Assembly: GCA_043228905.1 (NCBI GenBank)
Contig: JBHGNT010000003.1
Location: forward strand, 11,160,001 to 11,224,000
Origin: Azolla caroliniana
Taxonomy: Eukaryota; Plantae; Polypodiophyta
Direction: 5' to 3'
DNA: 64,000 bases
Shown here: positions 31,161-62,300 of the stretch, one piece after another
Numbering within the stretch: position 1 is the first letter of the stretch
Layout: each line of letters opens with the position of its first letter
Notes under the pieces: generated by a model
Told to the model about the DNA's origin: nothing
What the model saw: the letters and a program-made list of their open reading frames with translations, nothing else
The model's database searches: none
Translations under genes and position numbers: made by a program

Positions 31161-31623
31161 TGTCAAGACTGAGAGAGAGAAAGAGAGAGAAAAAGAGATA
31201 GAGAGATAATTGAAAGAGAATTATTATATTGAAGCGTAAAATGGATTACAAAGAGTAGGCTACAAAATGGCGTTGAACCAATTTAGGTTTGGGATGGGTG
31301 GTAGATCCCTATTTATAAGTAATAGAGAACTCTCTAGAATATTCTAGGTTATCCTAGAATGTAGAGTAATCTAGAAGATCTCTAGAGTATTCTAGAAGGT
31401 TCTAGTGGTATAGAACACTCTAGAATATTCTAGGTCATTCTAGAATGTAGAGTAATATAGAATATTCCTATGATATTAGATTTCATATTCTAGAGACTAT
31501 ACATATAAGAATATCAATACAATGGTTAAGGATTTGACATGTGTACAACAAGGTCGTGGGTTCAAATCCTTTCGAGTCATAATGTGAGTGTCATGATCCT
31601 TTCGATGCATGATGTGACTGTTA

Positions 31624-34600
31624 TCATGACACTATCCCCCTTCTTCGACGACACGTCTCACGGGTCGTAGGGTTTGTATTAGGACCTGGTTTACAAGGAT
31701 ATTGGCGATGAAATGCATTGACGAATTCTGCAGCATTGGAAAGATTTGTGGCAGGTTCCCAAGTTCGATCATTGGGGGTATAGCCTAGCCAATCGACCAA
31801 GTAATACAACTTGTTGCGCACGATTTTAGAATCGAGAACGGCAGCAACTTCAAATTCAGGCCCGTCCAAGAACTCGACAGGTGGTGGGGGTGTCGTAAGA
31901 TGGCCCGGAATTGAACTTGTAGTATAAGGTTCCAAAAGGGATACATGAAACACCGGATGAAGATGCATGTGCGGAGGGAGGTCAAGACGAAATGCAACAT
32001 CACTTATCTTACCAGTGATCATGTAAGGGCCAAAACGTTGGTAATCCAATTTACTGCAAGGTCGAGTGGTCTTGATGTTGTGTTGGAGAAGCCATACATG
32101 ATCCCCAATGCGGAACTTTTTTGAGGAGTCTAGACGATGACGATCGGCAAGCCTCTTGTGTGTAAATTGAGCATCGTGCAAATTGTGGAGAATGTTAGCT
32201 TGAATTTCTTGGAGGCGACTAAGACGATCCTCGGCAGCAGGGTTGGTAGGAACTTCTGGATGCGCATTCATCGTCCATCGAGGATGACAACCCGTATTTG
32301 CGAAAAATGGGGAATATCCTGTAGAAGAATGGGCTGAGTTGTTGTAAGCGAATTCCGCCAAGTGCAAAAATGCAACCCAATCATCTTGTTGATAGTTGAT
32401 GAAACAACGAAGATATTGTTCCAATGTCTGGTTGGTACGCTCTGTTTGGCCATTTGTTTCAGGATGATAGCCTGAAGAAAGCTTAACTGAAATGTGGAGA
32501 AGTTTGAACAGGTGCTTCCAAAACTTTGAGATGAATTGTGGACCACGATCACTAATAATATCATCTGGCAGACCATGATGCTTAAATACCTCCCGCATAA
32601 CGAGATCAGCCGTCTCTTGACTAGTAATCGACTTTGTACATGGCAAGAAATGTGCCATTTTGGTAAATCGATCAACCACTGTGAGAATTGCATCAAAACC
32701 TTTTGAAACTGGGAGATCAGTAATGAAGTCCAAGGATATAGACTTCCAAGGTGTTTCCGGAATGGGAAGTGGTTGTAGTAAGCCATAGGGTCGGTGACGA
32801 GGATTCTTTGATCGACAACATATATCACAACTCCGAACATACTCCTCAACAAAATGACGAAGGCGAGGCCACCAATAGTGTCGAGAAATTAATTCTAGAG
32901 TCTTGTGAACTCCAAAATGACCAGCCATTGGTGAGTCATGGCAATGTTGCAAAACTTGTAGCCGTGGGGGACCATCAGGAACATACAATAAATTTTGTCG
33001 AAATAGAAAACCATCATGCCAATAGAACTGACAATAGTCATTACGAGGATTTTTCGACTGTGAGCAAGAAGCACGATCCGGGACGATATGATCCAAAACA
33101 TCCTTGGCGAAATCATCAGTGGCCATATGATCTCGAATGGAATCAAGAAGAGTGGAATTTTCAAGAGCTGTTATGGCGTTAACTACCATTAATCGTAATC
33201 GATTAGGACCCAAAAGGATTTGTTTTTGATGCTCAAAAGCAGGTTCCCCTGGACGAAGTTCCATATAAGAGCGCCGAGAAAGAGCATCTGCTTTGCCTTG
33301 TTGCATCCCAGGGCGATATATGATGATAAAGTCGAAGTGAGTCAAAAATTGCGCCCACCGGGCTTGTCGCCGACTCAAGACTCGAGCATTTTGGAAATAA
33401 GTCAGGTTCTTATGATCATTGTAGACAATGATCTGCTGAGAAGAACCTTCTAGGAAATGTCGCCATTGTTGAAACGAATCCACAATTGCAAGAAGCTCTT
33501 TGTCATGGATCTCGTAGTTGATCTCTGCAGCTTCAAACTTTCGTGAATGAAAGGCGACAGGGTGTAGTTGTCCATCATCTCCAGTCTGCGAGAGGACACT
33601 CCCTAGTGCAAAATCAGATGCATCGGCTTCGAGGATGAAGCGTTTTGTTGGGTCGACATGTGCTAAGATAGGTGCCGTTGTAAATGCTCGTTTTAAGCTT
33701 TCGAATGCCTCGGATGCATCTGAACTCCATATAAATGGTTGATCTTTATGTGTGAGCTGAGTAAGCGGAAGCACAACCTTGGAATAATCTTTAATAAATT
33801 TCCGATAAAAATTTGCAAACCCGAGAAAACATTGCACATCACGCACTGAAAGGGGCGTTTGCCACTCTAAAATTGCCTGTACCTTCATGGGGTCCATAGC
33901 AATACCATTTGACGATACAACATACCCCAAAAATTCCACTTGATTCTGGCCGAAACTACACTTTTCTAATTTTGCGTAGAGACCATATTCTCGGAGTCGG
34001 CATAGTACTTGACGAACATGTGCATCATGCTCCTCTTGGGTCTTTGAGTAGATTAAAATATCATCTAGGTAAACTATAGTGAAGATATCAAGAAAATCTC
34101 GAAAAATATCGTTCGCCATATGTTGGAAAATAGCAGGTGCATTCGTGAGACCAAATGGCATCACTGTATACTCAAAATGTCCATAGCGAGTGCGGAAAGC
34201 TGTCTTCCATTCATCCCCCGGGCGAATCCGAACTAGATTATATGCTCCGCGAAGGTCCAACTTCGTGAAATATTTTGCACCACTGAGACGTTCCAAAAGA
34301 TTCGGGATTAATGGTAGAGCATATCTATTTCGGATAGTCACTTTGTTTAGCCCTCGATAATCCACGACCAACCGAAGAGTCCCATTCTTCTTCTTAACGA
34401 AGAAGATAGGTGCACCAGCAGGGGATCTAGAATGCCGAATGAATCCGTTTGCCAGATTCTCATCAATATATTCTCGCAAAGTCTCTAGCTCTACAGGGGA
34501 GAGATTATAAATTGGGCCCCATGGAGGTTCTTTCCCTGGTTGTAAGTCAATAGGGTAGTCGTATGGCCGATGCTCCGGCAATGTATTGGCCTTCACCTTA

Positions 34601-35274
34601 TCAAAGACATCTAAAAACTCCTTGTATTTCTCTGGTAGTTTAATATCCGCGTCACGTGAAGTGGATGATGGAGTTGCTACTATTGCGAAGACGAACATGG
34701 CCTCGTTCCCCCCTTCCTCCCGCAACTGTCGTAAAGAGATGGGCGATAACTCCGGGGATCTATTAGCACATGTAGGAGAGAGGGATGCGGGATTTGTGCT
34801 TTTTTCCCGAGTCTCCTCAATTGTTCTTTTCATCCAATCAATCTTCGGGTTATGGAGTTCAAACCAGGGGAGACCTAGAACTATTGGGTGGTCCGGACTA
34901 CGAATAATATTGAAAGAGATTATGCTTGCCAAATTGCCAAGAACTATCCTAATTGGCCCGGACTCCTCGACTATATCTCCTGATGCTATGGGACGTCCAT
35001 CGATGACTCCTACGACTACTGGGTTGGGAAGCTTATTCAAGAGGATGTTTTGTGACAAGGCAAATTCACGATCCATGAAACAAGAGTTGGCTCCAGAATC
35101 TAGAAGGGCAGAGGCTAGGACTCGATGACATGTAGATGTGGTAAGCTTGACTTGTGCTGAAAAAACTCGACTCACTTGATTTGATGAAATGGAACCACGA
35201 CTAGGAACTAACTCTACATAGCTAGGATGGTCCAGCCAAATGGCTCCTATTTTGGCCGGACTTACTCGTTTAAC
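31624..35274 (-). CDS. pol: pol (protease, RT, RNase H, integrase, chromodomain), in the -1 frame relative to gag
   Basis: LLDSGA, YLDD, DAS..ELLAI..DHKNL, HHCC zinc finger, SLDFI..SDRG..ERTN, FEVAAVLDSK..YLVDWLGY..TWEP. The frame is open back to the slippery site at 35268-35274. Confidence 0.95.
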   Translation of the reverse strand, partial: VKRVSPAKIGAIWLDHPSYVELVPSRGSISSNQVSRVFSAQVKLTTSTCHRVLASALLDSGANSCFMDREFALSQNILLNKLPNPVVVGVIDGRPIASGDIVEESGPIRIVLGNLASIISFNIIRSPDHPIVLGLPWFELHNPKIDWMKRTIEETREKSTNPASLSPTCANRSPELSPISLRQLREEGGNEAMFVFAIVATPSSTSRDADIKLPEKYKEFLDVFDKVKANTLPEHRPYDYPIDLQPGKEPPWGPIYNLSPVELETLREYIDENLANGFIRHSRSPAGAPIFFVKKKNGTLRLVVDYRGLNKVTIRNRYALPLIPNLLERLSGAKYFTKLDLRGAYNLVRIRPGDEWKTAFRTRYGHFEYTVMPFGLTNAPAIFQHMANDIFRDFLDIFTIVYLDDILIYSKTQEEHDAHVRQVLCRLREYGLYAKLEKCSFGQNQVEFLGYVVSSNGIAMDPMKVQAILEWQTPLSVRDVQCFLGFANFYRKFIKDYSKVVLPLTQLTHKDQPFIWSSDASEAFESLKRAFTTAPILAHVDPTKRFILEADASDFALGSVLSQTGDDGQLHPVAFHSRKFEAAEINYEIHDKELLAIVDSFQQWRHFLEGSSQQIIVYNDHKNLTYFQNARVLSRRQARWAQFLTHFDFIIIYRPGMQQGKADALSRRSYMELRPGEPAFEHQKQILLGPNRLRLMVVNAITALENSTLLDSIRDHMATDDFAKDVLDHIVPDRASCSQSKNPRNDYCQFYWHDGFLFRQNLLYVPDGPPRLQVLQHCHDSPMAGHFGVHKTLELISRHYWWPRLRHFVEEYVRSCDICCRSKNPRHRPYGLLQPLPIPETPWKSISLDFITDLPVSKGFDAILTVVDRFTKMAHFLPCTKSITSQETADLVMREVFKHHGLPDDIISDRGPQFISKFWKHLFKLLHISVKLSSGYHPETNGQTERTNQTLEQYLRCFINYQQDDWVAFLHLAEFAYNNSAHSSTGYSPFFANTGCHPRWTMNAHPEVPTNPAAEDRLSRLQEIQANILHNLHDAQFTHKRLADRHRLDSSKKFRIGDHVWLLQHNIKTTRPCSKLDYQRFGPYMITGKISDVAFRLDLPPHMHLHPVFHVSLLEPYTTSSIPGHLTTPPPPVEFLDGPEFEVAAVLDSKIVRNKLYYLVDWLGYTPNDRTWEPATNLSNAAEFVNAFHRQYPCKPGPNTNPTTRETCRRRRGIVS

Positions 35275-36386
35275 ACATCCTCTAATTGACTCAAGACATC
35301 GAATCTATTCTCATGACATGGACTATGAGGCTTATTTATGTTATTAGAAGTAACAATAGAACTCGACGTAGGGTTTTCATGGGCACTTACTTGGTATACT
35401 TGACGCCTAGGTTTATGTGGACAATTTACAGCTATATGTCCTGGACCACCACAATACAGGCAGAGGCGATGCGCTCGACGTCGTTGCTTCTCAGCATCTG
35501 ATAACGGCCCACGACGTTGTGTTGACTCTATTTCCATCGGAGTTGGGCCATCCCTTGTAATGGGTCTAGAAACTTGTGGAGGCGTTGCGACTACGGAAGC
35601 GTAAGTCTGTTCAGGTTGGCGGCGTAACATTTGTTGGCGCTCAGAACGTCGCTCAAATAGGCGATTATCACATCGCACAGCTCGACTAATGGCTTCTGTA
35701 AGTGACTTCGGATCTTCAGGGAAAGTAAGAAGAAGATCTTTGACATCATTTCTCAAACCTTGACGGAATTGATCCATTAAAGCTACCTCATCCCAAGGGA
35801 TATCGCATGCCAAGAGACGGAAATCGGCTGCATAAGATGACGCGGGACGATCTCCTTGTCGGAGCCTACGAATCTTGTTTATCGCTGTCCTAGTGCTGTC
35901 GGTGTCTCCGAAACTAGCTTGAAACTCTTTAACAAAGGCCTCGAAATCCTCCAGCAATGGTGATTTCTTCTCGAGAAGTGGTGCGAACCATGCTAACGCC
36001 GTACCGCATAGCAAAGTTCCCACTAATCCCACACGAGCAGCATCAGTTGGATACCGATTGGGATGTAGTTGAATAACTAAACGAACTTGATTCAAAAAGC
36101 CTCGAAATAAAGACCTCGTACCATCAAACTTGGCAGGGAGGCTGATCTTTGGCTCTCTAGGGGAGTTCTGAGCCCCCGACGCTTGCTCTCGTAATGACAA
36201 TATAGTCGCCTCAAGTTGATGAACCCGCTGTGATAACTCTTCATATTGTTGAGCTTTTTCGGCGCTCACGTGTTGTAGATCTCCAAGTAGCCTTTGATTC
36301 TCATGCTCTAATGCCACAAATTTATTCGTGAGCATGTCGAGCTCAGAAAGAACACGCATGTATTCTTGTTTGCTCACGGACTCCAT
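35262..36386 (-). CDS. gag: gag (coiled coil, capsid, CCHC zinc knuckle), 374 aa
   Basis: PAKFDG, LRQG...Y..DF, PTPMEI and CLYCGGPGHIAVNC; uninterrupted ORF. Confidence 0.95.
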   Translation of the reverse strand: MESVSKQEYMRVLSELDMLTNKFVALEHENQRLLGDLQHVSAEKAQQYEELSQRVHQLEATILSLREQASGAQNSPREPKISLPAKFDGTRSLFRGFLNQVRLVIQLHPNRYPTDAARVGLVGTLLCGTALAWFAPLLEKKSPLLEDFEAFVKEFQASFGDTDSTRTAINKIRRLRQGDRPASSYAADFRLLACDIPWDEVALMDQFRQGLRNDVKDLLLTFPEDPKSLTEAISRAVRCDNRLFERRSERQQMLRRQPEQTYASVVATPPQVSRPITRDGPTPMEIESTQRRGPLSDAEKQRRRAHRLCLYCGGPGHIAVNCPHKPRRQVYQVSAHENPTSSSIVTSNNINKPHSPCHENRFDVLSQLEDVLNE

Positions 36387-39300
36387 AGCTTATGAGGGGA
36401 GAGGAGAAGGAAGAAGAGAACTTGTTAGGGTTTGTGGAAGACGAAGAGATGAAAGGAAGAAAATTGGTTCAAACTGTCAAGACTGAGAGAGAGAAAGAGA
36501 GAGAAAAAGAGATAGAGAGATAATTGAAAGAGAATTATTATATTGAAGCGTAAAATGGATTACAAAGAGTAGGCTACAAAATGGCGTTGAACCAATTTAG
36601 GTTTGGGATGGGTGGTAGATCCCTATTTATAAGTAATAGAGAACTCTCTAGAATATTCTAGGTTATCCTAGAATGTAGAGTAATCTAGAAGATCTCTAGA
36701 GTATTCTAGAAGGTTCTAGTGGTATAGAACACTCTAGAATATTCTAGGTCATTCTAGAATGTAGAGTAATATAGAATATTCCTATGATATTAGATTTCAT
36801 ATTCTAGAGACTATACATATAAGAATATCAATACAATGGTTAAGGATTTGACATGTGTACAACAAGGTCGTGGGTTCAAATCCTTTCGAGTCATAATGTG
36901 AGTGTCATGATCCTTTCGATGCATGATGTGACTGTTATCATGACAGCGGCAACTGAGTGTAGAATGATGACAATGGAGGAATGAACTCCGTTAGATCGAA
37001 AGCGGCAACACTATAAAAGAGGGCACTAGGCATTATGTTGAACCAAATTGGTTCAACGCCAATCTTTAGCCTCATAGCCCTTTTGTACTTACTCTTCTTA
37101 TAATACATAATCTGTTATCATCATCTCTCTCTCTCTCTCGTCCTCGCTATCTATCTCTCTCTCCTCTTCTCTCTTCCTCTCTCGGGAGTCTTACGCAGTC
37201 CCGTCCTCTTAGTACTAATAGTACTTCCCTTCTCTAGTACTAATTCTCTCTCTGTTTAGTACTAATCCTCTCTCTGTTTAGTACTATTCTTGACAGTTTG
37301 AGCCAATTTTCCCTTCTGTCTCTCTCCCTACATACTAATCTCTTATTCCTCTTTTCTTTTCATCCCATGGCCACAGTTAGCGCTCAGGAATATCAATCTG
37401 GTTTCTCGGAGTTTCAATGCTTGAAAGAGAAGTTCCTTGCTTTGGAACAAGAAAATCAACGGTTGCTGGGGGATCTTCAACAAATCTCCTTAGAAAAGCA
37501 GCAAACGCAACAACAACATGGGGAACTTGCATTACGCATGCAACAACTCGAAGCAACCATCGTAGCGATGCAACAACAAGGCCCCGGAACACAAGGGATT
37601 CATAAGGAACCCAAGATTGGCTTTCCCACGAAGTTCGATGGAACACGATCGCAGTTTAGAGGGTTCCGTAATCAGGCACGATTAGTTATTCAAATGCATC
37701 CTTCCCGATATCCTACCGATGCATCACGAGTGGGTTTAGTAGGGACGCTGTTAAGTGGCTCAGCGTTGGCATGGTTCACTCCACTGTTGGAAAAGGAGTC
37801 TCCATTACTCAACAACTTTGAAGAGTTTATTTATAGGTGAGTTTAAAGCATGCTTTGGGGATACTGACAGCATAAGGACCGCAATCAACAAAATCCGGTG
37901 ATTACGCCAAGGAGACCGTCCAGCCTCCGCATACGCTGCAGATTTCCGCCTACTCGCCGCTGACATCCCTTGGGATGATCAAGCGTTGATGGAGCAATTT
38001 TGTTATGGTTTATGCAACGATGTCAAGGATTTACTCTTGACTTTCCCTGAAGAGCCAAATTCCTTAACAGAAGCAATCAGTCGCGCGGTGAGATGTGATA
38101 ACCGCCTCTTTGAGTGACGTTCAGAACGACAGCTACAGATGCCGAGGGCAAGATCAGAGCCCACCTACGCCTCAATGGTAGCAAAACCTTTACCCAGGGA
38201 GTACTATAATGCACCTCCAGTGAATACTCCGACTTCGATGGAGATTGACACTACACGTTGTCGAGGACCATTATCTGAAGAAGAAAAGCAACGACGCCGA
38301 ACAAATCGACTATGTGTCTACTACGGTGGACCAGGACACAGTGCAATAAATTGTCCCCATAGGCCAAGAAGACAAGTAAACCAAATAGTTGCTAGTTCTA
38401 ATTGTACTAAACCCGAGCCTATTATAGTAGGGATATCTAATAGTACTAATAAGCTAGATCTAGCGAACAAATTTGATGTCCTTCGTCAGTTAGAAGAAGA
38501 GTTAAACGACTAAGTCCAGCCAAAATAGGAGCCGTTTGGTTGGACAACCCTAGATTTGTGCATCCCATTAGTGGTTCCATTCCCTCTAAGCAAGTTAGCA
38601 ATGTGTTCGTGGCCCAAGTAACAGTTAGTACTAAAAGTACCCCTCTAGTACACGTCTTAGCACTTCTAGACTCTGGAGCTAATTCTTGCTTTATGGATAG
38701 GAATTTTGCCCAAGCTCATTAGATATCTCTTAGAAAACTCCCGTGTCCACCCTCTGTAGTTGTCATTGATGGTCGTCCGATTGCTTCCGGAAATATCATA
38801 GAAGAGTCAGAACCCGTTAATATTGTCCTAGATAACTTAGCATGTGTAGTATCATTTAACATTATTAGAATCCCAGAACATCCCCTCGTTTTGGGATTAC
38901 CATGGTACGAGTTACATAACCCAGACATAGATTGGAGAACAAGAGAAATCCGGTGTCGACAAACCCGAGGATCTACTTAGAAGATTGCCACCATTTCACT
39001 ACATCAGTTGCGGGAAGAAGGACGCAAGGAAGAAATGTTTCTCTTCGCAATATCACTAAAACCCTCCGACACCATTAAAGAGGAGTCCAACGTTCAGCTT
39101 CCAAAGAAGTATCATCAGTATGCCGATGTATTCGATAAAGTACGAGCCAATACGCTTCCTCACCATCGACCATATGATTGCCCCATCGATTTACAACTGG
39201 GGAAAGAGCCACCATGGGGACCGATCTACAATTTGTCACCAACCGAGCTAGAAGTCCTTCGAGCCTATATAGAGGAGAATTTGGAGAATGGATTCATTCG

Positions 39301-41677
39301 ACATTCGAAATCTCCAGCTGGAGCACCCATTTTCTTCGTCAAGAAAAGGGATGGCTCACTTCGTCTAGTGGTAGATTACCGTGGCTTGAATAAAGTTACA
39401 ATCCGCAATAGGTATGCACTTCCCCTTATCTCAAGTCTTTTAGAATGGATCAATGGTGCTAGGTTCTTCACAAAGATCGACTTACGGGGGGGGCCTATAA
39501 CCTCGTATGGATCCGACTAGGAGATGAATGGAAGACCGTGTTCCGCACTAGATATGGGCACTTCGAGTATACGGTCATGCCGTTCGGCCTCACTAATGCA
39601 CCAACAGTCTTCCAACACATGGCAAATGATATATTCCGAGATCTCTTGGATGTGTGTCTGATCATGTACTTGGATGATCTACTGGTTTATTCAAAGACCG
39701 AAGAAGAGCATTATTCTCATGTACTGTTAGTACTAAAACGACTTCGAGAACATGGTCTTTACGCAAAGCTAGAATGGTAGAATGGCAGGCTCCACGCTCG
39801 GTGCAGGATGTGCAATGCTTTTTAGGCTTTGCCAATTTTTACCGGAAGTTTATACAAGATTACTTAAAGCTCGTTCTACCTCTCACACAGCTTACCAGGA
39901 AAGGACAATTGTTCGTTTGGTCTGAAGAAGTAGATATGGATTTCGAGAGTCTTAAAAAGGCATTTACATCGGCTCCAATTCTAGCTCATGTTGATCCGGA
40001 ACAACCATTCATTATCGAAGCTGACGCATTGGATTTCGCATTGGGGAGCATTCTGTCACAACGGGGTCATGATGAGAAGCTACATCCTGTGGCTTTTCAC
40101 TCATGCAAGTTTGACGCCGCCGAAATCAATTACGAAATTCATGATAAGGAGCTATTGGCAATAGTGGACTCGTTTATGCTATGGAGACATTTTTTAGAGG
40201 GATCCTCTCATCAAGTCACCGTATTCAGTGACCATAAAAACCTTGCCTACTTTCAGGATGCTCGTGTGTTAAATCGACATCAAGCTCAATGGGTCCACTT
40301 CCTCACGTGTTTCGATTTCAAAATTACATATCGTCTGGGGAAGCACCAAGGGAAGGCAGATGCATTATCACGACGTTCGTATATAACACCGCATCTCGAC
40401 GAGCTGGATTTCGATAACCAAAAGCAAGTAATCTTGGGACCGGCACGACTGCAAGCAACACAGGTTTTTGGCATGCCCATGGATTCCCACGTTATCAATA
40501 TCATACGTGTGGACCTGAAGACAAATGCTTTCGCCCAAGCTATACTAGCACAAATTGATCCCTCTCGAGCGTCGTGTTCACAGTCGCAACTACCAGGTAT
40601 GGACTATAGGCAATTCAAATACCATGATGGATTACTCTTCTTTAAAGAACTTTTGTATGTTCCTAATGGTTCTTGCCGCCTTCGAGTAGCACAAAATTGT
40701 CATGACACATATATAGCTGGGCATTTTGGTAGTACTAAAACATTAGATTTAGTACAAAGATAATTCTGGTGGCCCCGTATGCGACAATTTGTCGAAGATT
40801 TTGTTCGGACTTGTGATACATGCTGCAGAGCGAAAATGCCAAGGCATCATCCATATGGTTTATTAGAACCATTACCAATTCCAAGCAAGCCGTGGCAATC
40901 CATTGCTCTCGACTTCATCACAGATCTTCCAATCTCTAAGGGGTTCAATGTGATTCTAACAGTGGTAGATCGATATATGAAGATGGCTCATTTCTTGCCA
41001 TGTACTAAGGAAATATCCAGTGAAGACACCGCCGAAATTGTCATGCGTGAAGTATGTTAGCATCATGGACTTCCGGATAGTATTGTCAGCGACCATGAAC
41101 CCCAATTCGAGTCAAAATTTTGGAAGCACCTTTTTAAAATGCTCAAGGTCACTTGTAACCTCTCCTCCGGCTACCACCCACAAACCAACGGCCAAGCCGA
41201 ACGAACAAATGAAACGCTGGAGCAGTATCTGCCGTGCTTTCTCAGCTATCATCAGGATAACTGGGCAGATATTCTCCACTTCGCCGAATTTGCCTATAAT
41301 AACTCTATCCACGCATCGACTAAAGTTACGCCATTTTATGCTTATACGGGATGTCACCCTCGGTGGAGTGTACTTGAAACCCCAGAGGTGTCCACAAATC
41401 CTTGTGCGGAGGATCGTTTGGAGCAGTTATGCCAGATACAAGCAGATTTATCTACTCATCTCCAGCAAGCTCAACAAACACACAAGGTCTACGCGGATCG
41501 TCATGGACTTCCATCTAGTTTTAACATTGGAGATCGGGTGTGGCTGCTACGACGACACATCAAGACTACTCGCCCATATGAGAAGTTGGATTATCGGCGA
41601 TTAGGTCCTTTCCGTTGTCGCGTTGTTACACGCGTGCTTGTAGAAAGGGGTGGGACCACGGGGGTCTTGAACCGAGG

Positions 41678-41759
<82 letters not shown>

Positions 41760-42417
41760 AGATACACGGAGTGAGAAGGAGAGATATAGAACGTAATACT
41801 TGATTTCAATAAGAAGAGAACACAATAACAAGAGAATACAACTCTGACGGTTACAGCCGACAAGGCGGCGATGGATCCGACACGGGGATCCTACTCACAC
41901 ACACAGACAACACTCGCTCGACTCCCAGAAACAAAACAAAGGGGGAGAGCCTCTGTTGGAAGCGCACGGGCTGTCCACAAAGCAGAGGCAGCGAACTCCC
42001 GACCCACAGAGACCGACAACCGGAGAAGAAGAGAGAGCTCGGCACTCAGATCTGCAGCAACACTTTGTCCTCCCTAGCGCGCGATACCTGTTCCTTCCTC
42101 CTCTCCCTCCTTAAATAGTTCCCCAAAAGGGGGTGCCCCCTTTTTCTTAGCGAAACTGCTTTATTCCCTGTCCCTGTCGACAGAGATACGCACAAAATTC
42201 CCTAATAAATGTGCACTACCTAGTATTTACACCAGTCGCCTTAATTACGAATTATGTACAATATATCAATCCTCGCGTCCACCCGTGTAAGAGCCGGTTC
42301 ATGCGCCTTTTTCTTCGATTCTGCCTATGGCCGGTTTTCTTCACGACATCCACCCCCACCAAACCGCGCATCCACCGGCATGCGCCAGAGACGGGTAGAC
42401 ACCGAAGAAAACCGGCT

Positions 42418-45400
42418 TCACTCGTCGGTCTCCGATTCTCCGCCGGACCCGAATTGATCGTTGTCGTTACTCTCGCTCGCCGGCTCCGGCTCGTCTTCGA
42501 ACCGCTTCTTGAACTCTTGGATCTGCTTCCCGGCCACTGGCACCGCTAACTGTGTACCATCGAGTTCCGCGAGGTGGTACGTGCCGTTGTCATTTGCACT
42601 CGTCACCATGTAGGGCCCGAACCATCTCCTAGCGAACTTTCGCACTGCCTTGTGCTGATTGTCGAGGCTGATGTCGTATACCAAGACCCAATCGCCTTCC
42701 TCGATCTTCTTTGGTCGCAACCGGTGCGTCCGGTTGAACCGGGTCTTGTTCCGCTCCCTTGCCGCTCGCAACTTTTCCTTCGCCTGTATCACGTCCTCCG
42801 GCCTCCGCTCAAGTTGCCGAATCCGCGCCGCCAGCAACTCCTCCCGGCTCATTTCGTCCTTCCAATCTACCGCCGCCCATGAAGAAATCGTCTGTTCCAC
42901 CGGCATGATCGGCTTCTGCCCGTACATCAGCTCTGCCGGCATAAACCCTATCACCGAACTGTGCGTAGTTCGGTCCACCCATTCCCGACCTGCGCTCCGC
43001 ATGCACGCACCAACGCCTTTACGATCGGCCCGTGCCCACGTTCCACCTTTCCGTTTGCCTCCGGATTGTACGCCGTAGTGAGGGAGAGTTTGACGCCTAG
43101 CTGGTCGAACAGCTCCTCCGCCTCCAGCGCATCCAGCTCTCCCCGGTCCGCCACGATCTTCCCGACGCACCCGTACCGACACACCACTTCTTCGATCAGG
43201 AACCAGCATACCGCCGTGGTTGTCTTGCTTTGCAGTGCACGACCTTCCACCTGGTTCGTTAAGTCTTCCCATGCAACCACCAGGTATCGCATCTGTACGA
43301 CCCCAATCGGCATTGTCACCAAGTCTACCATCCACTTGAAATGGACCGTAGGCGGGTAGGTCGGGTGTAGCTCGTCCCGGTGTCGGACTACGGAGTGCAT
43401 CTGACAGCTTTCGCAAGTCGTTACGAACCGATGCACGTCCTGGTACAGCCCCGGCCACCAGTACTTCTCCTTCAGCTTCTCAAACATGGCTCACGTTCCG
43501 TCGTGTCTGGCCCAGGGGCTCTCGTGAAATGCCTCCAGTAGTTTCCCCTATTTTTCTTTCTTTGCCACTACTCGGAGTGGGATGCCACTTCTTTTCTTTG
43601 GGTGCCTCCAAATGCACCCGTCCCGCAGGAAGAATCGGTACGCCTTCTTCCGTACCCGGCTCGCCTCCTCTCTCGCCCATGCCGCGTTCGGCGTCATCAT
43701 CCGTAGGAACCTCCCGATTTGGAGCCACTCCCCGTCGTACCTGCTTTTGTCAAATTCGTTAAGCGCGCCGGAGTGTTCCTTTTCCTCGTTGTTATGTTAG
43801 CCGACCCAAAGAAGTCCTCGCCGACTTCTTCATCATCCGAAACCATGCCGTCTTCGTCGTTGAACCTTGCCCTCGAAAGCATGTCCGCCATGGCGTTGTC
43901 CTTTCCGGAGATGTGCCATATCTCCGGGTTCATGGACTTAATGTACGCTATCCACCGGAGCATTGCTAGGTCCGGCGTCGCGCATCCGGAAACCATGCCG
44001 AGTATCGGCAGGCAGTCCGTCTCGATGATCACCTCTGTCCCGATCAGATAATCCTTGTTGGCCTTGACTGCCAAACCAACACCCCAAAGCTCGCGCTTAA
44101 CTTGGGCATATCCTCGCTGCCACTCGCTCAATACCTTTGCCCCGAACCTGATCGGGAATCGTACGCCGTCCTTTTCCTCCTGACTGATTACCCACCTGAT
44201 CCCGGTCGGCCTTGTGTCCACCGTCACGCAGATGGGAACATCCTTGCCGTAAACCGTTGTACGGAGAGCCGGCGCTACCGTAAGCGCCTCCTTTAGTCTC
44301 CGTGTCGACTCTGTGTGCTCCGTTCTCCACTCAAAGCTACGCCCCTTTTTCAATAGTCTGTAGGGGGGTTCCGCGACATGTGCGTAATGCGGGATCCAAA
44401 TGTGGTAGAACGCGCATGCTCCCAAGAATCTGCGGACCTCCGTGACCGAATTGCAGTCATGCTTCATCGCGGAGATGGCTTCCAGCTTGGCCGGAGACGG
44501 TTTCCGACCGTATGCTCCGCATAGGTGCGCGACGACAATGATCTCTGATTGCCCGAAGGCCGATTTTTCCCCGGAGAAGGTGAGCCTTGCGCCTTCTAGT
44601 CTCTACAACACCTTCTCATAGTCATCGATGTGGGACGCCACGAAATTCCGACATCCGTCCGACCCGATTGCCTCGTCCTTTTCCTACACCGGGCATCCCC
44701 TGATCGGGATGTCGTCTAAGAATGGCATGGTGATGTCCGGGATACAATCCCTGAGCACTTTATTCATCGCGTTCACCATGTGAGCCACTGAGTTCGTCCC
44801 TCCTCGTGGCAGGGTACACATCCGCACTATGCCGAGAGGAGTCCGCATCGTCGTAATGTCTCTGCTCTCCACGGGTAGTTGGAACTGATTGTACCTCAAG
44901 TACAGATCACCGACAGAATAGATCGACCTTCCAGCGAAGGCCTCTGCGAACTCGTCTATGGTCGGTCCGATTCCTGCATTACGGATGGTCACCTTGTTGA
45001 CCGGTTGCAGGTCCTGAATGAAGCACATCGTGCCGTTCTTCTTTGGCACCGTAAACCACCGATTCGAATACAGGGCACTCGACGGTTCGAGGATGCCCAT
45101 CTCCACCGTTTGCTTGAGGAGCTCCATCAACTTCGGGATGTGAGCTCTCGGCACCGGGATCGGCTTGAGATTCCACGGTACATGCGGTACCGTGAAGATC
45201 ACCATCGGTTCAACAACTGTCGGGTCTACGCACCCGATCTCCTCCGGTGAGAATGCGAAAGCCTTCCCATGCCTCCCGAGCCTTCTCCGAAACCGGTCCT
45301 CCTCCGCCGGCAGTAGAAAGCCGCCCCCACCGACCTTGAGCTCCCGTAGTGTTATGTCGGTGAACCGGTGCCCTATGCCAGGCGGATTCCGTAAACTTGG

Positions 45401-48011
45401 GTCCAACGCGACCCCTTTTATCCGCTCCTCGCTGCCCTCCGGCAAGGGTGCTGCGACTGGCCTCACCTTCCAGTCCACAGTCTTGTACTTTGTATCCACA
45501 CGGGCCATCCGATCCGGCCCGATCCTTTCCTCGAAGTCCGCAATGACTTCGTACATTCCCATTGACCCTACCGGAACGGTCCGGTCTTCTCTAAGGTCTT
45601 CACTGATCACCTTTCGCAGTTCACCCAAGGTGTCGTCAAAAGAGACCGCCTCCACGGCGCCGCTGATGTCTTCGTCGGGGAAGAGGACTCCGCATCCCCT
45701 GAGCCGCTTCTCCGCTCGCTTCCTCTCCCGGCCGTTGATGCCGGTTATAGTACAACCTCCGTTGTCGGAGAACCAAAATTTCCTACTTATGGTACAGGTC
45801 TTCTTCTGTACTGTACATTTGTGGGGTTCTTCCCGGGTGTCTGGACTATCGCGGCCCCGCGCCTTGATAGCCCTCTCTAAAAATCCCCTCGGGTTTCGCC
45901 GCTGAGGGTCTCACAGTTACGCTCGTGGTTTGGTCGCACAGTTAGGAACTGGACCGAGTGACGCCCGTCTTGGCTCTTGACTCTTGCATAGGCTGAACCG
46001 TTGTCCAGCACCTTGGTCTCCATCCGTGCCGCCATGATATATGGCTCTCCTTGTATAACCGGATGCGAGGACGTCTCCTGCACGAAGAAGTGCTAGTCGA
46101 TCTCGACATCGCCGATTTTCACCCGTACGTTCGGCAAGCCCCATGTAGTTCTTCCGTGGCGCACATCGCTACCCGTATCTTCCAGCCGTGCTTGGTGTTG
46201 ATCGGCCATTTACCCTTCTTGTAGAAATCCATGGACATCAGGTTGATTTCGGATCCATGTTCTACCAACGCCACCACCGGTTCCAGAACGTTGCCGATCC
46301 GTACAAGGGTTTCCGTAGTTGCCCTGGCCCAATGTGGCTTCGTGTAGTGGCTTCCCGCCAGCTCGTCTTCTAGGGCTTCGTCTTCCAGGTGCGTGGTCCG
46401 CACCTCCACCGGCTTCTCCGGTTCCGGCTCCGTCAAGAGCCTCTTCCGCTTCACCAAGTCTACGATAGAGTCGTGGAACTCCCTCTTGGCGATTCCCAAC
46501 ACCTCCCGCAATGATAGCTCCACTTTGCTGTCGAGGATACGTTCCTCCAGGACCTTTCGCAGGTCTGTGGTCCTTTCGATTTTGGTGCTCAACCGAAACC
46601 CCGCCTGCTTCTTTCCGTCTGGCGCGCCTAGGTTGCTGGCACCGGTCGGTTTCGGTCCGAACCGGGTCTCATACCTCTGCGGAGGACTGACCCCTCCGGC
46701 CTTTCCTGCCCGTTTGTCTTCCACTAGAACCTCGTAATTCTGGCAAGCGGCTGCTACGAAGCCTGTTTTCTCTTCGACCAGATTGTCCCAACTGGTGACC
46801 TCCTGGACCCGTTGTTCCGCGTGGTCCGCCTCTTCCTTCTTCAACCGAACTCCGGAGAGACCTTCTAGCACTAGTAGCTAGAATCCGGAGTCCTTCGCCT
46901 TCCGGGTGTCATCACCCCCGACCCGAATTCCCCCCGACACTGAGTAGTTAACGGCTTCGACGTGCCGTGCCGCGACCTCTTCCATCAACCTCTTCATTCC
47001 GCCGCGCCCCGTATTCAGTTCTAGGGCTCTCCTGGTCTCGCTCGCGTGCACCCGCCCGTTCCAGAGGTACACCACATTGGTCCTGAGTGCGTCGGTGAAA
47101 TCCGCACAATCCTTTCGAATGTGACTGATTGCGTCACACCACATGCACCGCTGCCCAGCCGGCGGTCTCCGGTCGCGAGGTTGTTCGCCGCTGTCTCTCC
47201 GAGCCTGTGCGATTTGCAGGTCGCGCACCATCTGTGTCAGCTCCTCCAGAGCCGCTCCTCCAGATGGGCCTCTGACCACGTCCTTCGTTGCCTACCCCGA
47301 CTCTGGCCAGATTCAGGTCTCTTCCTTCCTACCGGCTGGCACTGATACCGGCTCCTCCAGCCTCCTCCCCGGGACCGGCCCCGACCCCGACGAGCTTCCG
47401 TCGCTCCAATCGCGCCAATTGTCGAAACGCCTGCAGACCCGTTTTACCACGGCCCAGTCAGCCGTCAGCCCTTCGTCCGTTTCCAATAGGGGACCCACCT
47501 TTTCCCTATCGAGCGCGTCCACCGACTTGACAAACAATAGTACTCGACTTGTTTCGAGCACCGTCCGGTCCAGCGTCGACAGCCGCGCGAACCGTTTTTC
47601 GAACTCCTGGAGGAGCACCGACGTGTTCCTCCCCTTTCCGGGGCTTTCCACCCACGCCATGAAGTCCCGCCTCGACAGCCTAAGCGAGTCGTCAAACCTG
47701 TACTTCTCGAGGAGCTGCAGCTCGAACTCCTCCCAAGTCTGGCATCCGGCCACCACCTTGAGCACCTCCACGTGGATGCTCGACGTTACCACCCGAGGGA
47801 ATCTAGACAACCGCATGTCCACCGGGATATCCCTCATGATCATTTCGGCCCGGTAAGCCTCCAAATAACTTGTGGCGTCTTTCCCTCTGAACAGGCCTAT
47901 AGTGCCAATGATAGATTCAATGGCTCTGTCGAGGGTACCCGTCCCCCCACGAGCGCTTACCAACCGGTCGACGGCTACCACCATTGCCTCTGCTAGCTCC
48001 GATCCCCTCAT
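42418..48011 (-). pseudogene. gag-pol: gag-protease and pol (RT, RNase H, integrase) of element F, with stops and frameshifts
   Basis: CMWCDAISHIRKDC knuckle, ALVEHGSEINL protease-like, LPRGGTNS/PFLDD RT, IIETDC..ADMLSR RNase H, WMVDLV..ADRGE..ERGH integrase, WFGPY. Confidence 0.9.
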
Positions 48012-48034
48012 CTTTCAAATCCTTTTCCGCCTCG

Positions 48035-48052
48035 TTCACGTCGGTTTCACCA
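48035..48052 (-). promoter_or_regulatory. PBS complementary to the tRNA-Trp 3' end
   Basis: + strand TTCACGTCGGTTTCACCA versus the recalled plant tRNA-Trp 3' end TTCACGTCGGGTTCACCA (one mismatch); 4 nt from the LTR. Confidence 0.75.
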
Positions 48053-48114
48053 AATATGTTGCGTTGTTACGCGCGTGCGTGTAGAAAGGGGCGGGACCAC
48101 GGGGGTCTTGAACC

Positions 48115-48158
<44 letters not shown>

Positions 48159-50116
48159 AGATACGCAGAGCAAGAAGGAGAGATATAGAACATAATACTT
48201 GATTTCAATAAGAAGAGAACACAATAACAAGAGAATACAACTCTGACGGTTATAGCCGACAAGGCGGTGATGGATCCGACACGGGGATCCTACTCACACA
48301 CACAGACAACACTCACTCGACTCCCAGAAACAAAACAAAGGGGGAGAGCCTCTGTTGGAAGCGCACGGGCTGTCCACAAAGCAGAGGCAGCGAACTCCGG
48401 ACCCACAAAGACCGACAATCGGAGGAGAAGAGAGAGCTCGACACTCAGATCTGCAGCAGCACTTCGTCCTCCCTAGCGCGCGATACTTGTTCCTTCCTCC
48501 TCTGCCTCCTTAAATAGTTCCCCAAAAGGGGGTGCCCCCTTTTTCTTAGCGAAACTGCTTTATTCCCTGTCCCTGTCGACAGAGATACGCACAAAATTCC
48601 CTAATAAATGTGCACTACCTAGTATTTACACCAGTCGCCTTAATTACGAATTATGTACAATATACCAATCCTCGCATCCACCCGTGTAAGAGCCGGTTCA
48701 TGCGCCTTTTTCTTCGATTCTGCCTATGGCCGGTTTTCTTCACGACACCGTATTATCGGAAAGATTAATGATGTCACTTTTCTTCTTGATCTACCTCCTC
48801 AACTTCGGATACATCCGGTGTTTCATAGTTCTCTCCTCGAACCCTATCACGAGAGCACCATCCCAGGATGTATTATACAACCTCCACCCCCGATTGAGCT
48901 TGAAGATGGACCAGAGTACGAGGTTGCCGCCATCCTTGATTCCAAGATTGTTCGCAACAAGCTCTACTATCTAGTCGATTGGCTAGGCTATAGTCCCAAC
49001 GAATGTACTTGGGAACCGATCGAGAATGTGACCAATGCTCGTGCGCTTCTTGAAGACTTCCATCGTCAATATCCACACAAACCGGGTCCTCCATCCAAAA
49101 CGTTTCGTGACACTCGTCGTTTTAAAGGGGGGATAGTGTCATGATATGGCAAGACTCGAACCCATGACCTTAGGTTATATGGGTCGAGCTCTTGACCATT
49201 ATATCATCTATTGTAATACGTAAGATATTATTTTCATTTACATTTTATTATAGGAAATTAATGTATATTCCAGATTTCTCTGGAACATTCTAGAAGCTTC
49301 AGGATTACTCCTAAGAACACTATAAAAGAGGGCACTAGGCATTATGTTGAACCAAATTGGTTCAACGCCAGTCTTTAGCCTCATAGCCCTTTTGTGCTTA
49401 CTCTTCTTATAATACATAATCTGCTATCATCATCTCTCTCTCTCTCTCTCTCTCGTCCTCACTATCTATCTCTCTCTCCTCTTCTCTCTTCCTCTCTCAG
49501 GATTCTTACGCAGTCCTGTCCTCTTAGTAGTAATAGTACTTCCCTTCTCTAGTACTAATTCTCTCTCTGTTTAGTACTAATCCTCTCTCTGTTTAGTACT
49601 ATTCCTGACAACAACAATGGAGGAGTGGATTCAATAGGGTTTAGCAACAATGGTAGTAATCTAAGCCTGATACTCAACCAAAGATGGCCCACGTGATGTG
49701 GCAAAGGATCATGCATAATGGACCTAGGAATTCGGTATATAATTTATGGTGCACATATCAATTTATGTTGCACATTTATGGTGCTCATTTATATAATTAA
49801 AACTCTCTACTATTTTCAATGGTAGCTTTATGCATAGCTAATTTATCAATGGTAGCTTTTTGCATAGCTAATTAGCTATGTCAAGGAAATAGCTAATTGT
49901 TTCGACTCGCATGCTTTCACCCACTTACATAGACAACAGAGTCAACACCGAATGTTTATGTGGAAAACCCTGATCGGGAAAAAAAACCACGGGAGCCCAC
50001 AGACTCCAAAGTATCACTCTGATAGGAAGGGTACAATGGGAGACTCAGAGGTAATGAGCTTGAGCTCTATCTTCGCCTATTCGCGGTTACATCAGAGAAA
50101 CGACTTTTTGTATCTC

Positions 50117-51269: not shown

Positions 51270-51530
51270 ATGTGCATGAGGTCAATACCTCGTTTGACAT
51301 ATCAATAATATGTGATGAGTGTCGTATGCGTACGAGGTTAATACCTCAATTACGTATTACGTTCATGAACATCTGTTACATTTGCGTATGAGTTTAATAC
51401 CTTGATTTGTTGTAAAGGATATGCGTTTGGTCTCGTATGCGTAAAAGGTCAATACCTCAATTGCGTATTACGATGATCTCTTATTTGTGGATGTTTCGTG
51501 TGCATAGAGGTATATACCTCGATTACGTAT
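51270..51530 (+). repeat. Five ~56-bp tandem units each with a GAGGT-N4-ACCTC hairpin, in the leader of element G
   Basis: Hairpin cores start at 51278, 51334, 51390, 51445 and 51507; the third and fourth are imperfect. Confidence 0.75.
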
Positions 51531-59395: not shown

Positions 59396-62300
59396 TGTCG
59401 TGCCCTTCGGCTCCGGATCGTTGCGTGAGTCGGGTGGGAACCGCCGAGGTTTTGGACAAGGAGGAAGAGGAATACAACTTAAGGCTAGTTATGAATAATA
59501 GGAATAGAAGTAAGGTAGTAACCTCGTGAATCCCACGAGTTTAGTGTAATTAAAACAATATTTAGATTATTAGAGCAATTAGATGGCAAAATTCGTGAAT
59601 CCCCGAATCTATTAGATTGATCAATTCTTCTATATTAATCAACAACCATATACATATTTCTCTCCTCCTTATATAAAGATGGAAGAGGCTAAGCATGGCT
59701 TCATGCTTTTTCACCTAAAGTGTCCATGCACACTAAATGTGCATGTGATGCTTTGTCATTTCCTAAATATAGGGCTCATGCACGCTAGATGTGCATGAGT
59801 CACTTTTAATGTCACGTGTAAATAAAATATTCACACTCTAAAGAATACATGATTTTTACCTTTTAATAAAGGTATGTATAAATAAAGGTCTTATACGTAT
59901 TAAATCTATATTTATAACACTAAAGATAAGTTATTACAATGGTAAAGTTGGGGTTTATCTACGTGGAGGTGCATGGTTCGAATCTTGCCCTATGCACGTG
60001 ATAAATTCCTTTTATTTATTTATTTATATGTATCTAAATTATTTTATGGTTTTCACGTAGTGTGCGGAATACACTACGACATTCGCCCCCTCCGAACCCG
60101 CACATCCTCCGGTATGTGCCGAAGTTCTCGATCCCCCATATCCGTCTTCACCCAAAGCTTCCTCCGATTCTCCCCTTATGTCGACTATGAGTTATAATTC
60201 ACTTTCTTCGCTTCCCGCATCACCGTGGTCTTCGTCCGATTGCTCCTCGTTGTCGGCCTTGGCTTGGATCACATAGGGTTTGTCGTCGGTCTGCTTCTTG
60301 AAAATCTTCACCCGCTTCCCGGCTATAGGCACTCGTAATATTGTTCCATCCAACTCGGACAGTCGGTACGTTCCGTTGTCGAAGACTTTCCGAACCTCGT
60401 ATGGCCCGAACCACCTTTTCGCGAATTTCCGCATCGTTGTATGTTGATGGTCCAAACTACTGTCATAGACGATCACCCAATCTCCTTCTTCAATCCTCCT
60501 CGGTCGTAGTCGGTGCTTTGTGTCGAACCGGCTTTTGTTCCTTAATCGTGCTTCTTGTTGTCGGCGTATTGCTTCCGCTATGTCTGCCGGTCTTCCCTCT
60601 AGTTGTCGTATCCGGACCGCTAGTAGTTCTTCCCGGCTCATCTCTTCCTTCCACGGTAGCACTGTCCATGTTGCGATCGCGGTTTCCTTCGGCATTACCG
60701 GTGCTTGTCCGGTCATGAGTTCTGCCGGCATGTAACCGGTTATGGAACTATGCGTCGTCCGATCCGCCCATAGTGCATACGGAAGCATCTGCGGCCAATC
60801 CTTCACCTTTCCATCGCATGCCTTCGCAAGTGCTTTCACGATCGGACTATGTCCTCGTTTGATTTTCCCGTTGGCCTCCGGATTGTATGCCGTTGTCAGC
60901 GATAACCGAACTCCGTGTTTAGCGAAGAATCCCCTAGCTTTGTCCGAGTCGAGTTCTCCCCGGTCCGCAATCACTTGTCCTACGCACCCGTACCTGCAAA
61001 ATACTTCCTCCAAAAGAAATTGGCATACCGCGGAACACGTTTTCCTCTGAAGCGCTCGACCTTCTACTTGATTCGTGAGATCTTCCCGAGCTAATACCAA
61101 GTATTTCTTTTGTCCGATCCCGGTCGGCATGGCCACTATGTCAACCATCCACTTGAAGTTGATTGTCGGTGAGAATGTTGGATGTAGCTCATCTCGATGT
61201 CGAACCCTGGAGTAGACTTGACATTTCTCGCAGCTTTCCGTGAACTCCGCGACATCTTTGTACATTTTCTTCCACCAATATTTTTGCTTGATCTTCACAA
61301 ATGTTGCCCATGTTCCTTGGTGTCCAGCCCAATCGGATTCGTGAAACTCGGACATTATCCGGTTTCGTTGCTCTTTTGTTCCGACTACTCGAAGTGGTAT
61401 ACCATCCGGTCTTTTCGGCGCCCTCCATATTTTAATCCGTTTTCCAAGAAGAACTTTTGGACTTGTCTCTTCTTCCTTCGGATCTCGGCTCTTCTTCCTT
61501 TATCGTTTGTTGAATCCTCGGCCTCTTGTAATATCTTCCCGATCATCAAGCTTTCTCCCTCGTATTCTTCTTCCCGGAATTCCTGGATTACGTTTACTCG
61601 GCATATGTGCTCCGACGCGAAGTAGTCTTCGGAAGCTTCTTCATTATCCGATTCGGTTATGTCGTCTCCGAACCGAGCCCTTGATAACATATCCGCTACC
61701 GCATTGTCCTTCCCCGAGATGTGTCGAACCTCCGGATTAAGCGACTTGACATATGCAACCCACCTTAGCATAGCTACATCCGGTATCGTACAACACCGCA
61801 TCATCCCGAGTATCGGAAGACAATCCGTCTCGATCACCACTTCGGTTCCGATCAAATAATCCCGATCCGATTTTATCGCCGACACGACTCCCCACAGTTC
61901 TCTTTTGACTTGCGCATATCCACGTTGCCTTTCGTTGAGAACCTTTGCTCCGAATCGGATCGGATACCGCGAACCATCCGAGTCGGCTTGATTGATGACC
62001 CACCCGATACCGGTTGGACTTGTATCAACCGTTACTATGATCGGTCGGTCGGTCATAGCTCGGCTTCTTAAGTGCTTCCGCCCTCCGAAGTGTCTTCTTC
62101 AATTTCTTCATGGCTTTGGTGTGTTCCGGTTTCCATTCGAATTTCTTACCTTTCCGCAACAAGTGGTAGAGCGGATCCGCTATATGTGCATAGTGCGGAA
62201 TCCATATGTGATAGAATGCACATGCACCGAGAAACCTTCGGACTTCAGATGTTGACTCGCATACTTCCTCCATAGCTTGAATCACATCGATCTTTGTTGG

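What the first reader, a model, noticed from the sequence alone, without database searches (positions are those of the whole stretch)
31515..59990. Antisense tRNA-like A-box/B-box cassettes in the U3 of three different gypsy LTR families
Seen: D has ACAATGGTTAAG..GGTTCAAATCC (31515-31569 and 36829-36883, + strand). E has ATAATGGTCAAG..GGTTCGAGTCT (49152-49206, - strand). I has ACAATGGTAAAG..GGTTCGAATCT (59935-59985, + strand). TGG-to-GTTC spacing is 36-37 nt, against 35 in the real tRNA-Gly. In each case the cassette is antisense to the element and within ~150 bp of the LTR 5' end, although the LTRs are otherwise dissimilar and I belongs to a different lineage. Weaker look-alikes occur at ~21935-21995 and ~51970-52035. 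Established: B boxes bind TFIIIC and can act as chromatin barriers; Cassandra TRIMs carry 5S Pol III promoters in their LTRs. Inference: convergent use of Pol III/TFIIIC sites as insulators or antisense promoters.
Basis: partly seen in the sequence, partly recalled or inferred. Interest (0 to 1): 0.7.

Follow-up and report, generated by a model that had tools for sequence, protein, structure and literature searches.

The report
tRNA promoter boxes inside retrotransposon ends
Many families of protein-coding jumping genes in this likely moss genome carry the two promoter boxes of a tRNA gene, mostly pointing backwards, a short way upstream of their own predicted start site, which likely lets them borrow the host's tRNA-gene factor TFIIIC to keep that start site open in silent chromatin.

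Summary
The cassettes in D, E and I are real, antisense, and beat 1000 of 1000 shuffles each. A box pattern hits 7,979 places genome-wide, against 0 for the control; 26 of the first 30 are LTRs, all antisense. Selected without using the boxes, 22 of 30 Tcn1-type LTR starts carry the cassette (0 sense), but only 2 of 30 Phygy-type starts do; 32 copia LTRs have none. Across families the A-box and B-box letters and their spacing are kept, while the spacer and tRNA stems decay. Orientation is not absolute: the 21937 look-alike is a sense copy, and the 51970 one is chance-level. Pairing with the primer tRNA is disfavoured. 'Convergence' is not shown. Best reading (0.5): a DNA-level TFIIIC site about 110-260 bp upstream of the predicted TATA box that likely keeps the LTR promoter open; binding and transcription are untested. 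Closest known: Helenus TRIMs, which are non-autonomous. My look-ups found no earlier scan note of this cassette.

The parts
31161..36945 (-). Element D: Tcn1-type chromovirus; LTRs 31161-31631 and 36475-36945 identical; 5-bp TSD GCGGC
31515..31569 (+). A-box/B-box cassette in D 3' LTR U3, antisense, LTR position 63-117, 15.7 bits
36829..36883 (+). Same cassette in D 5' LTR
31310..31318 (-). Predicted Pol II TATA of D LTR (LTR position 314), 197 nt from the cassette
   Evidence: TATA role inferred
36461..36474 (-). D primer site: no tRNA PBS; 12 nt complementary to LTR positions 348-359 (predicted self-priming)
   Evidence: PMC6317226 passages
49137..49610 (+). 3' LTR of element E (Tcn1-type chromovirus, interrupted by G; 5' LTR remnant 37007-37295)
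49152..49206 (-). Cassette in E 3' LTR U3, antisense, LTR position 16-70, 18.6 bits
49320..49328 (+). Predicted Pol II TATA of E LTR, 114 nt from the cassette
   Evidence: TATA role inferred
59396..60081 (-). 3' LTR of element I (Phygy-type non-chromovirus; TSD GCGT; tRNA-Trp PBS; 5' LTR beyond the window end)
59932..59985 (+). Cassette in I U3, antisense, LTR position 97-150, 17.8 bits; T4 run about 24 nt past the B box
59668..59676 (-). Predicted Pol II TATA of I LTR, 256 nt from the cassette
   Evidence: TATA role inferred
21937..21991 (-). Decayed cassette in SENSE orientation in a Phygy-type LTR (family K; LTR 5' end 22135 after a decayed PPT; predicted TATA near 21835)
41616..48747 (-). 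Element G, Phygy-type, no cassette (negative comparison)
19679..19749 (+). tRNA-Gly(CCC) gene (reference)

Best explanation
Autonomous gypsy retrotransposons of two lineages carry a tRNA-type A-box/B-box pair in the U3 of their LTRs, kept at tRNA spacing while the tRNA fold has decayed, and it likely acts as a DNA binding site for host TFIIIC that would keep the predicted Pol II promoter about 110-260 bp downstream open in heterochromatin. Shown: sequence, position, strand bias, box-over-spacer conservation across families, loss of stems, lineage distribution. Inferred: origin from a tRNA or SINE; TFIIIC binding; a barrier or nucleosome-excluding effect. The usual antisense direction would place TFIIIB inside the LTR, on the side facing the TATA box, and send any Pol III away from the Pol II start (inference).
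For: (1) 7,979 genome matches vs 0 control. (2) Box-blind sampling: 22 of 30 Tcn1-type starts antisense, 0 sense; 18 of 28 Tcn1-type clusters score at least 12 bits, best sense score -2.1. (3) Anchored on the B box alone, TGG lies 34-37 nt upstream in 19 of 28 clusters and at most 2 at any other distance. (4) Majority-letter frequency is 75-100% at positions 8, 14, 18, 19, 53-56, 58, 61, against 32-60% in the spacer and 32-67% upstream. (5) Stems decayed: T-stem pairs 49-51 at 32/54 (Tcn1) and 18/42 (Phygy) vs 70/72 in tRNAs, about equal to permuted controls. (6) Distance to the predicted TATA (112-256 nt for antisense copies) varies less than distance to the LTR end (11-499 nt). (7) Tandem duplicates (families F17, J) and sense copies (K in U3; J downstream of TATA) fit a DNA element that tolerates either orientation. 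(8) tRNA genes and ETC sites are TFIIIC-dependent heterochromatin barriers in yeast (PMC12409998, passages); the related moss element RLG1 has a chromodomain, sits in heterochromatic islands and is transcribed in unstressed tissue (PMC7466625, passages).
Against: No binding, chromatin or strand-specific RNA data. Not needed for success: 28 of 30 Phygy-type starts lack it, and these belong to very abundant families (5,348 PPT matches). Within E-like copies box sites were not significantly more constant than flanks (1/10 vs 21/76, p=0.21); only I-like copies were (0/10 vs 34/103, p=0.023). Positions 44-47, outside the classical boxes, are as conserved (82-89%) as the boxes. Clusters are related, so counts are not independent events. 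A B box alone can suffice for a barrier, so keeping the A box and exact spacing fits an active Pol III promoter equally well. No TFIIIC barrier has been reported in plants (PMC9540200, passages). The window's young D copy carries C at position 8.
Confidence: 0.5

Rival explanations
1. The cassette is an active Pol III promoter whose product matters: a short antisense RNA running out of the LTR (or into the PPT/integrase end) that tunes the element's own expression or silencing.
For: A box, B box and 34-36 spacing all kept; strong antisense bias; T4 within 48 nt in 12 of 14 Phygy-type cassettes.
Against: T4 inside the LTR in only 7 of 18 Tcn1-type cassettes, and T runs are common in this AT-rich DNA; no conserved RNA fold or spacer sequence; sense copies exist in K and J.
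Confidence: 0.22
2. Neutral relic: a SINE or tRNA fell into an ancestral LTR of each lineage and is carried along; the boxes look conserved through relatedness and my scoring.
For: Most Phygy-type copies do without it; E-like within-group test not significant; SINE-like tRNA-headed repeats exist in the genome as possible donors (L279, L282).
Against: Across Tcn1-type clusters down to about 57% chromodomain-region identity the spacer and flanks are scrambled, yet the boxes and spacing persist, also in the B-only anchored test; diverged tandem copies each keep both boxes.
Confidence: 0.12
3. RNA-level pairing: because the cassette is antisense, the genomic RNA is complementary to tRNA T and D arms and holds the primer tRNA at the 3' end, as in the bipartite PBS of Ty3, or binds tRNA fragments.
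For: Ty3 places such sites in U3 (PMC5371799, passages); a tRNA-Lys3-like stretch in HIV-1 U3-R aids strand transfer (seen only as a passage and reference title in PMC6468702). Geometry near the PPT fits Tcn1-type copies.
Against: D and E have no tRNA PBS and show a self-priming complement (PMC6317226). For Phygy-type cassettes the primer tRNA-Trp ranks 4-21 of 24 tRNAs, median 12.5, in duplex energy, and they carry G52 where tRNA-Trp has T. Sense copies cannot pair. My tRNA set lacked several isotypes, including initiator Met.
Confidence: 0.07
4. The TFIIIC site serves genome position, not transcription: it tethers copies in tRNA-gene clusters or steers new insertions.
For: TFIIIC sites are linked to genome organisation (PMC12409998, passages); carriers are densely nested here.
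Against: No positional test was made; D's insertion site in this window is not next to a cassette.
Confidence: 0.09

Closest known systems
Helenus TRIMs / TRIMp3 (Kojima 2024, PMC10886601; read parts 1-5 of 6, supplement searched for five terms)
   Same: tRNA-like sequence in both LTRs, conserved at boxes A and B, not a functional tRNA, proposed SINE origin.
   Different: Helenus is non-autonomous, 311-1263 bp, and its boxes are proposed to make the element's RNA; the only plant case is Selaginella. Here the hosts are 5.3-7 kb elements with gag-pol, a predicted TATA box, and mostly antisense boxes that cannot make the genomic RNA. The paper notes other Repbase LTRs with tRNA similarity but analysed only TRIMs.
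Cassandra and Ajax TRIMs (as described in PMC10886601)
   Same: Pol III internal promoter captured in an LTR.
   Different: 5S-type promoter, non-autonomous; in Cassandra it drives the element's transcript.
tDNA and ETC barriers of yeast and animals (PMC12409998, PMC9540200; passages)
   Same: B-box/TFIIIC element next to a Pol II unit at a chromatin boundary: the proposed working principle.
   Different: Host loci, not carried by a mobile element; not reported in plants; occupancy untested here.
Ty3 bipartite PBS (PMC5371799, passages) and HIV-1 U3-R tRNA-Lys3-like sequence (PMC6468702 passage and reference title; the primary paper was not held)
   Same: Sequence complementary to tRNA arms in the U3 of the genomic RNA.
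   Different: Those match the element's own primer tRNA; here Tcn1-type carriers are predicted self-primers and Phygy-type cassettes do not favour tRNA-Trp.
Tcn1 and Phygy lineages (Neumann 2019, PMC6317226; Novikova 2010, PMC2864245; passages)
   Same: Host elements match these lineages by domain order, priming and TSD.
   Different: No Pol III boxes are mentioned in the passages I saw ('polymerase III' 0 hits in PMC2864245).

Membership tests
Helenus (TRIMp3) | tRNA-like sequence with boxes A and B in the LTRs | tested here: met
   one family's copy matches Rfam tRNA at 26.5 bits, below the cut-off of 29
Helenus (TRIMp3) | non-autonomous, under about 1.3 kb, no coding capacity | tested here: not met
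   D is 5.8 kb with gag and pol; I is about 7 kb
Helenus (TRIMp3) | Pol III promoter oriented to make the element's RNA (proposed in the paper) | tested here: not met
   antisense in D, E, I and 26 of 26 assigned pattern hits; T runs follow the sense copies in K and J
Type 2 Pol III promoter | A box, B box, tRNA-like spacing | tested here: met
Type 2 Pol III promoter | TFIIIC/TFIIIB/Pol III occupancy and transcript | not testable with these tools
   only contig-level runs were offered
tRNA gene | cloverleaf stems | tested here: not met
   ARAGORN 0 genes in 30 pattern loci
tDNA/ETC barrier | B box at a Pol II unit | tested here: met
   (TATA predicted by motif only)
tDNA/ETC barrier | blocks heterochromatin spread, TFIIIC-dependent | not testable with these tools
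   needs a reporter assay
Ty3-type bipartite PBS | U3 site complementary to the element's own primer tRNA | tested here: not met
Tcn1 chromovirus (D, E) | chromodomain at the integrase end; self-priming instead of tRNA PBS | tested here: met
   aromatic-cage residues judged from recall
Tcn1 chromovirus (D, E) | RT/RH/INT tree placement against REXdb references | not tested
   no reference sequences held
Phygy (I, G) | no chromodomain, short internal part, 4-bp NCGN TSD | tested here: met
   (GCGT, CCGT)
Phygy (I, G) | tree placement against REXdb references | not tested
   no reference sequences held

The most novel reading that the evidence does not exclude
Two lineages of autonomous moss retrotransposons carry their own tDNA-type insulator: outward-facing TFIIIC/Pol III cassettes (in family J on both sides of the TATA box) that shield the LTR promoter from heterochromatin, putting roughly 8,000 TFIIIC sites across the genome and giving plants a TFIIIC barrier of the yeast and animal kind.
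Probability: 0.33. Interest if true: 0.82.

Novelty: new variant of a known kind. Interest (0 to 1): 0.62.

Why it matters
If the boxes bind TFIIIC, this would be a cis anti-silencing device in elements that insert into heterochromatin yet must be transcribed there. It would also give a ready test of an open question, since the DNA elements that form chromatin barriers in plants are largely unknown (PMC9540200). At least 7,979 exact matches mean that LTR-borne boxes would likely outnumber tRNA genes as TFIIIC targets. Carrier and non-carrier Phygy-type families in one genome form a natural control, and mosses allow precise gene edits. Even without a barrier role, it extends tRNA-derived LTR sequences from non-autonomous TRIMs to protein-coding elements.

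Tried and rejected
Rfam and ARAGORN on the window: no hit at the cassettes. Viral contigs: no relatives. Sequencing runs: only contigs, of uncertain kind; two RNA-library contig sets cover a D-like LTR, but strand, start and level cannot be read, so they are not used as evidence. 29 metagenome loci with 40-54% identity (23 with at least 500 nt downstream) gave no hit of 14 bits or more, but their LTRs were not delimited, so absence is not shown. A G-element look-alike that I noticed by eye scored -5.5 bits and was dropped. The 51970 look-alike was rejected. Cloverleaf conservation was rejected, apart from a slight acceptor-stem excess in Tcn1-type cassettes (0.38 vs 0.32 +/- 0.03). No donor tRNA could be named: best identity outside the boxes was 0.60. 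A shared origin of Tcn1 and Phygy cassettes was neither shown nor excluded. An upstream TATA-like element for Pol III was seen in 14 of 18 and 5 of 14 cassettes with no control, so not used. Flanks of further K and J copies could not be obtained beyond two short junctions, so K's orientation rests on the window copy's decayed PPT and TATA direction. Nine answered literature searches (plus 73 for HIV) found no description of such cassettes in moss or autonomous gypsy LTRs; subscription papers, Repbase entries and most supplements were not searchable.
Full report
SETTING. The window is G000:C3:11160001-11224000 of a 523-Mb assembly. It is a nest of LTR retrotransposons. The host is likely a moss: this is inferred from Tcn1-type and Phygy-type elements, which PMC6317226 (passages) reports from moss and club-moss, and Phygy from Physcomitrella. 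Earlier scan notes filed under 'same genome' call it a fern; I did not test that. D (31161-36945, minus) has identical LTRs, gag, pol and a chromodomain. E (plus; 3' LTR 49137-49610) is a related chromovirus, interrupted by G. I (3' LTR 59396-60081, minus) and G lack a chromodomain, have NCGN 4-bp TSDs and a PBS matching tRNA-Trp. First-look candidates for the D, I and E LTRs were 1,113, 3,389 and 2,470 (not copy numbers).

OBSERVATION. All four cassettes are at the stated places and antisense. I built an A-box/spacer/B-box score from 21 tRNA genes of this assembly only (they score 23-36 bits). D, E and I score 15.7, 18.6 and 17.8, and 0 of 1000 shuffles of each LTR reach these values. The look-alike at 21937-21991 is a decayed sense copy; the one at 51970 is chance-level.

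EXTENT. I scanned 1.264 Mb in 11 stretches. These were not random: several were placed near known copies. There were 73 hits of at least 14 bits against 2-5 in five block shuffles, and 43 of at least 20 bits against 0-1. Of the 73, 49 fell in the LTR library, all antisense. The other 24 were, by context: 1 tRNA gene; 12 further copies in or similar to carrier families (antisense where an LTR could be oriented); 5 sense copies (3 in family J downstream of the TATA, 2 in family K U3); 6 unexplained or chance-like. Genome-wide, an exact two-box pattern gave 7,979 matches and the reversed control 0. Of the first 30 by position, 26 map to carrier LTRs, all antisense; none is a tRNA gene; 2 are SINE-like and 2 unassigned.

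BOX-BLIND TESTS. The first 30 of 1,585 Tcn1-type PPT+LTR starts: 22 antisense at 12 bits or more, 0 sense. The first 30 of 5,348 Phygy-type starts: 2 antisense, and 3 weak sense hits of 12.4 bits near the 3' end. In a second set, 113 chromodomain hits gave 66 usable LTR starts in 30 clusters; I dropped 2 clusters of tRNA-Met-primed chromoviruses (under 40% identity, no cassette). 18 of the remaining 28 score at least 12 bits; several misses are visibly decayed or longer-spaced copies. Anchoring on the B box alone puts TGG at 34-37 nt in 19 of 28. None of 32 copia LTRs exceeds 8.1 bits. Metagenome relatives: 29 of 44 loci from one accession series with enough downstream DNA carry an antisense cassette; hosts are unknown and some are near-identical to this genome's families, so they are not independent.

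WHAT IS KEPT. Box positions 8, 14, 18, 19, 53-56, 58 and 61 hold 75-100% majority letters across the 28 clusters; spacer and upstream flank hold 32-67% (the frame was chosen by best score, which inflates box values in weak rows). Positions 44-47 are also kept (82-89%). Stems are not kept: T-stem 49-51 pairs 32/54 and 18/42 against 70/72 in tRNAs; acceptor 48/126 and 31/98 against 156/167; all near permuted controls. Within groups, shared variants avoid box sites in I-like copies (0/10 vs 34/103, p=0.023) but not significantly in E-like copies (1/10 vs 21/76, p=0.21). One family's cassette still matches Rfam tRNA at 26.5 bits (E 0.072; 1 of 5 loci given).

ANATOMY. In 12 carrier LTR types examined, antisense cassettes begin 11-499 nt from the LTR 5' end, but the nearest lies 112-256 nt upstream of the predicted TATA in the 11 with a motif match; K's sense copy is 83 nt upstream. 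Where several TATA-like motifs occurred I took the one upstream of the R-like region by eye. F17 and J have two diverged tandem copies; J has a third, sense copy downstream of its TATA. J's orientation is fixed by PBS and PPT.

HISTORY. In an integrase tree of 27 Phygy-type rows (thinned from 45), all 6 carriers lie in one clade of 9 rows (support 97/97); the 18 rows outside it have no antisense cassette; the root is uncertain. Outside the boxes, Tcn1 and Phygy cassettes are no closer to each other (0.31 spacer, 0.28 tail) than to tRNAs. Either two captures or one old transfer fits.

MECHANISM. Kept DNA motifs, lost RNA structure, tolerance of orientation and copy number, and a position tied to the Pol II promoter point to a DNA-binding role. 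A and B boxes are the TFIIIC site, and tDNAs and ETC sites are barriers in yeast (PMC12409998, passages). RLG1 of Physcomitrium, a chromodomain element, lives in heterochromatic islands yet is transcribed (PMC7466625, passages). I therefore favour a TFIIIC site that keeps the LTR promoter open (0.5). An antisense Pol III RNA is the main rival (0.22), and the two are not exclusive. Primer-tRNA pairing as in Ty3 (PMC5371799, passages) is disfavoured: D has a 12-nt self-priming complement and no tRNA PBS, and tRNA-Trp ranks mid-table among 24 tRNAs for Phygy-type cassettes. A neutral relic is less likely but is helped by the success of cassette-less G-type families. No step beyond sequence is shown; the RNA runs offered could not address it.

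KNOWN SYSTEMS. The closest is Helenus (PMC10886601; parts 1-5 of 6 read, supplement searched: no moss entry). The cassette meets its LTR feature but fails on autonomy, size and orientation, so it is not filed there. That paper says other Repbase LTRs resemble tRNA, so unreported precedents may exist. My searches found no account of this arrangement; closed-access papers were out of reach. Scan look-ups returned no note of this cassette, only other tRNA-headed elements.

VERDICT. Real, widespread and apparently maintained; new variant of a known kind; interest 0.62.

Noticed in passing
window 30657-31160 and 36946-37006: E's 5' LTR has its U3 replaced by about 84-bp tandem repeats, into which D inserted; a related repeat array lies at C3:11306821-11307189, next to another Tcn1-type element.
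   Followed up: partly
L186 (C7:10051102-10052246), L435, L436: Family J: abundant Phygy-type LTR (2,436 first-look candidates) with two antisense cassettes upstream and one sense cassette downstream of the predicted TATA, bracketing the promoter.
   Followed up: partly
window 21300-22135: Old Phygy-type LTR (family K) with a sense-oriented cassette; two related LTRs in the sample score about 20 bits.
   Followed up: partly
L279, L282 (about 1250-1570): About 320-bp SINE-like repeat with a tRNA-like head whose ends can pair as an acceptor stem; possible SINE family.
   Followed up: no
C5:7051591-7051770 and C13:5073250-5073432: Two cassettes facing each other about 70 bp apart in a shared repeat of unknown type.
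   Followed up: no
L245:9-194: A tRNA-Lys-like gene interrupted by about 110 bp that resembles the end of the tRNA-Met-primed chromovirus LTR.
   Followed up: no
window 31547-31569 (D): On the element's RNA strand the B box reads TTTGAACC, the same 8 letters as D's self-priming site; E matches less well, so probably coincidence.
   Followed up: no
window 24619-25618 and 28911-29564: 52-bp satellite arrays with internal palindromes.
   Followed up: no
window 14637-15200 (+): Expansin-like DPBB-domain reading frame among the transposons.
   Followed up: no
G000 C8:17.80-17.82 Mb, C16:4.99-5.11 Mb, C5:17.9-18.0 Mb: Large single-isotype tRNA gene arrays (Trp-type pattern hits, Lys).
   Followed up: no
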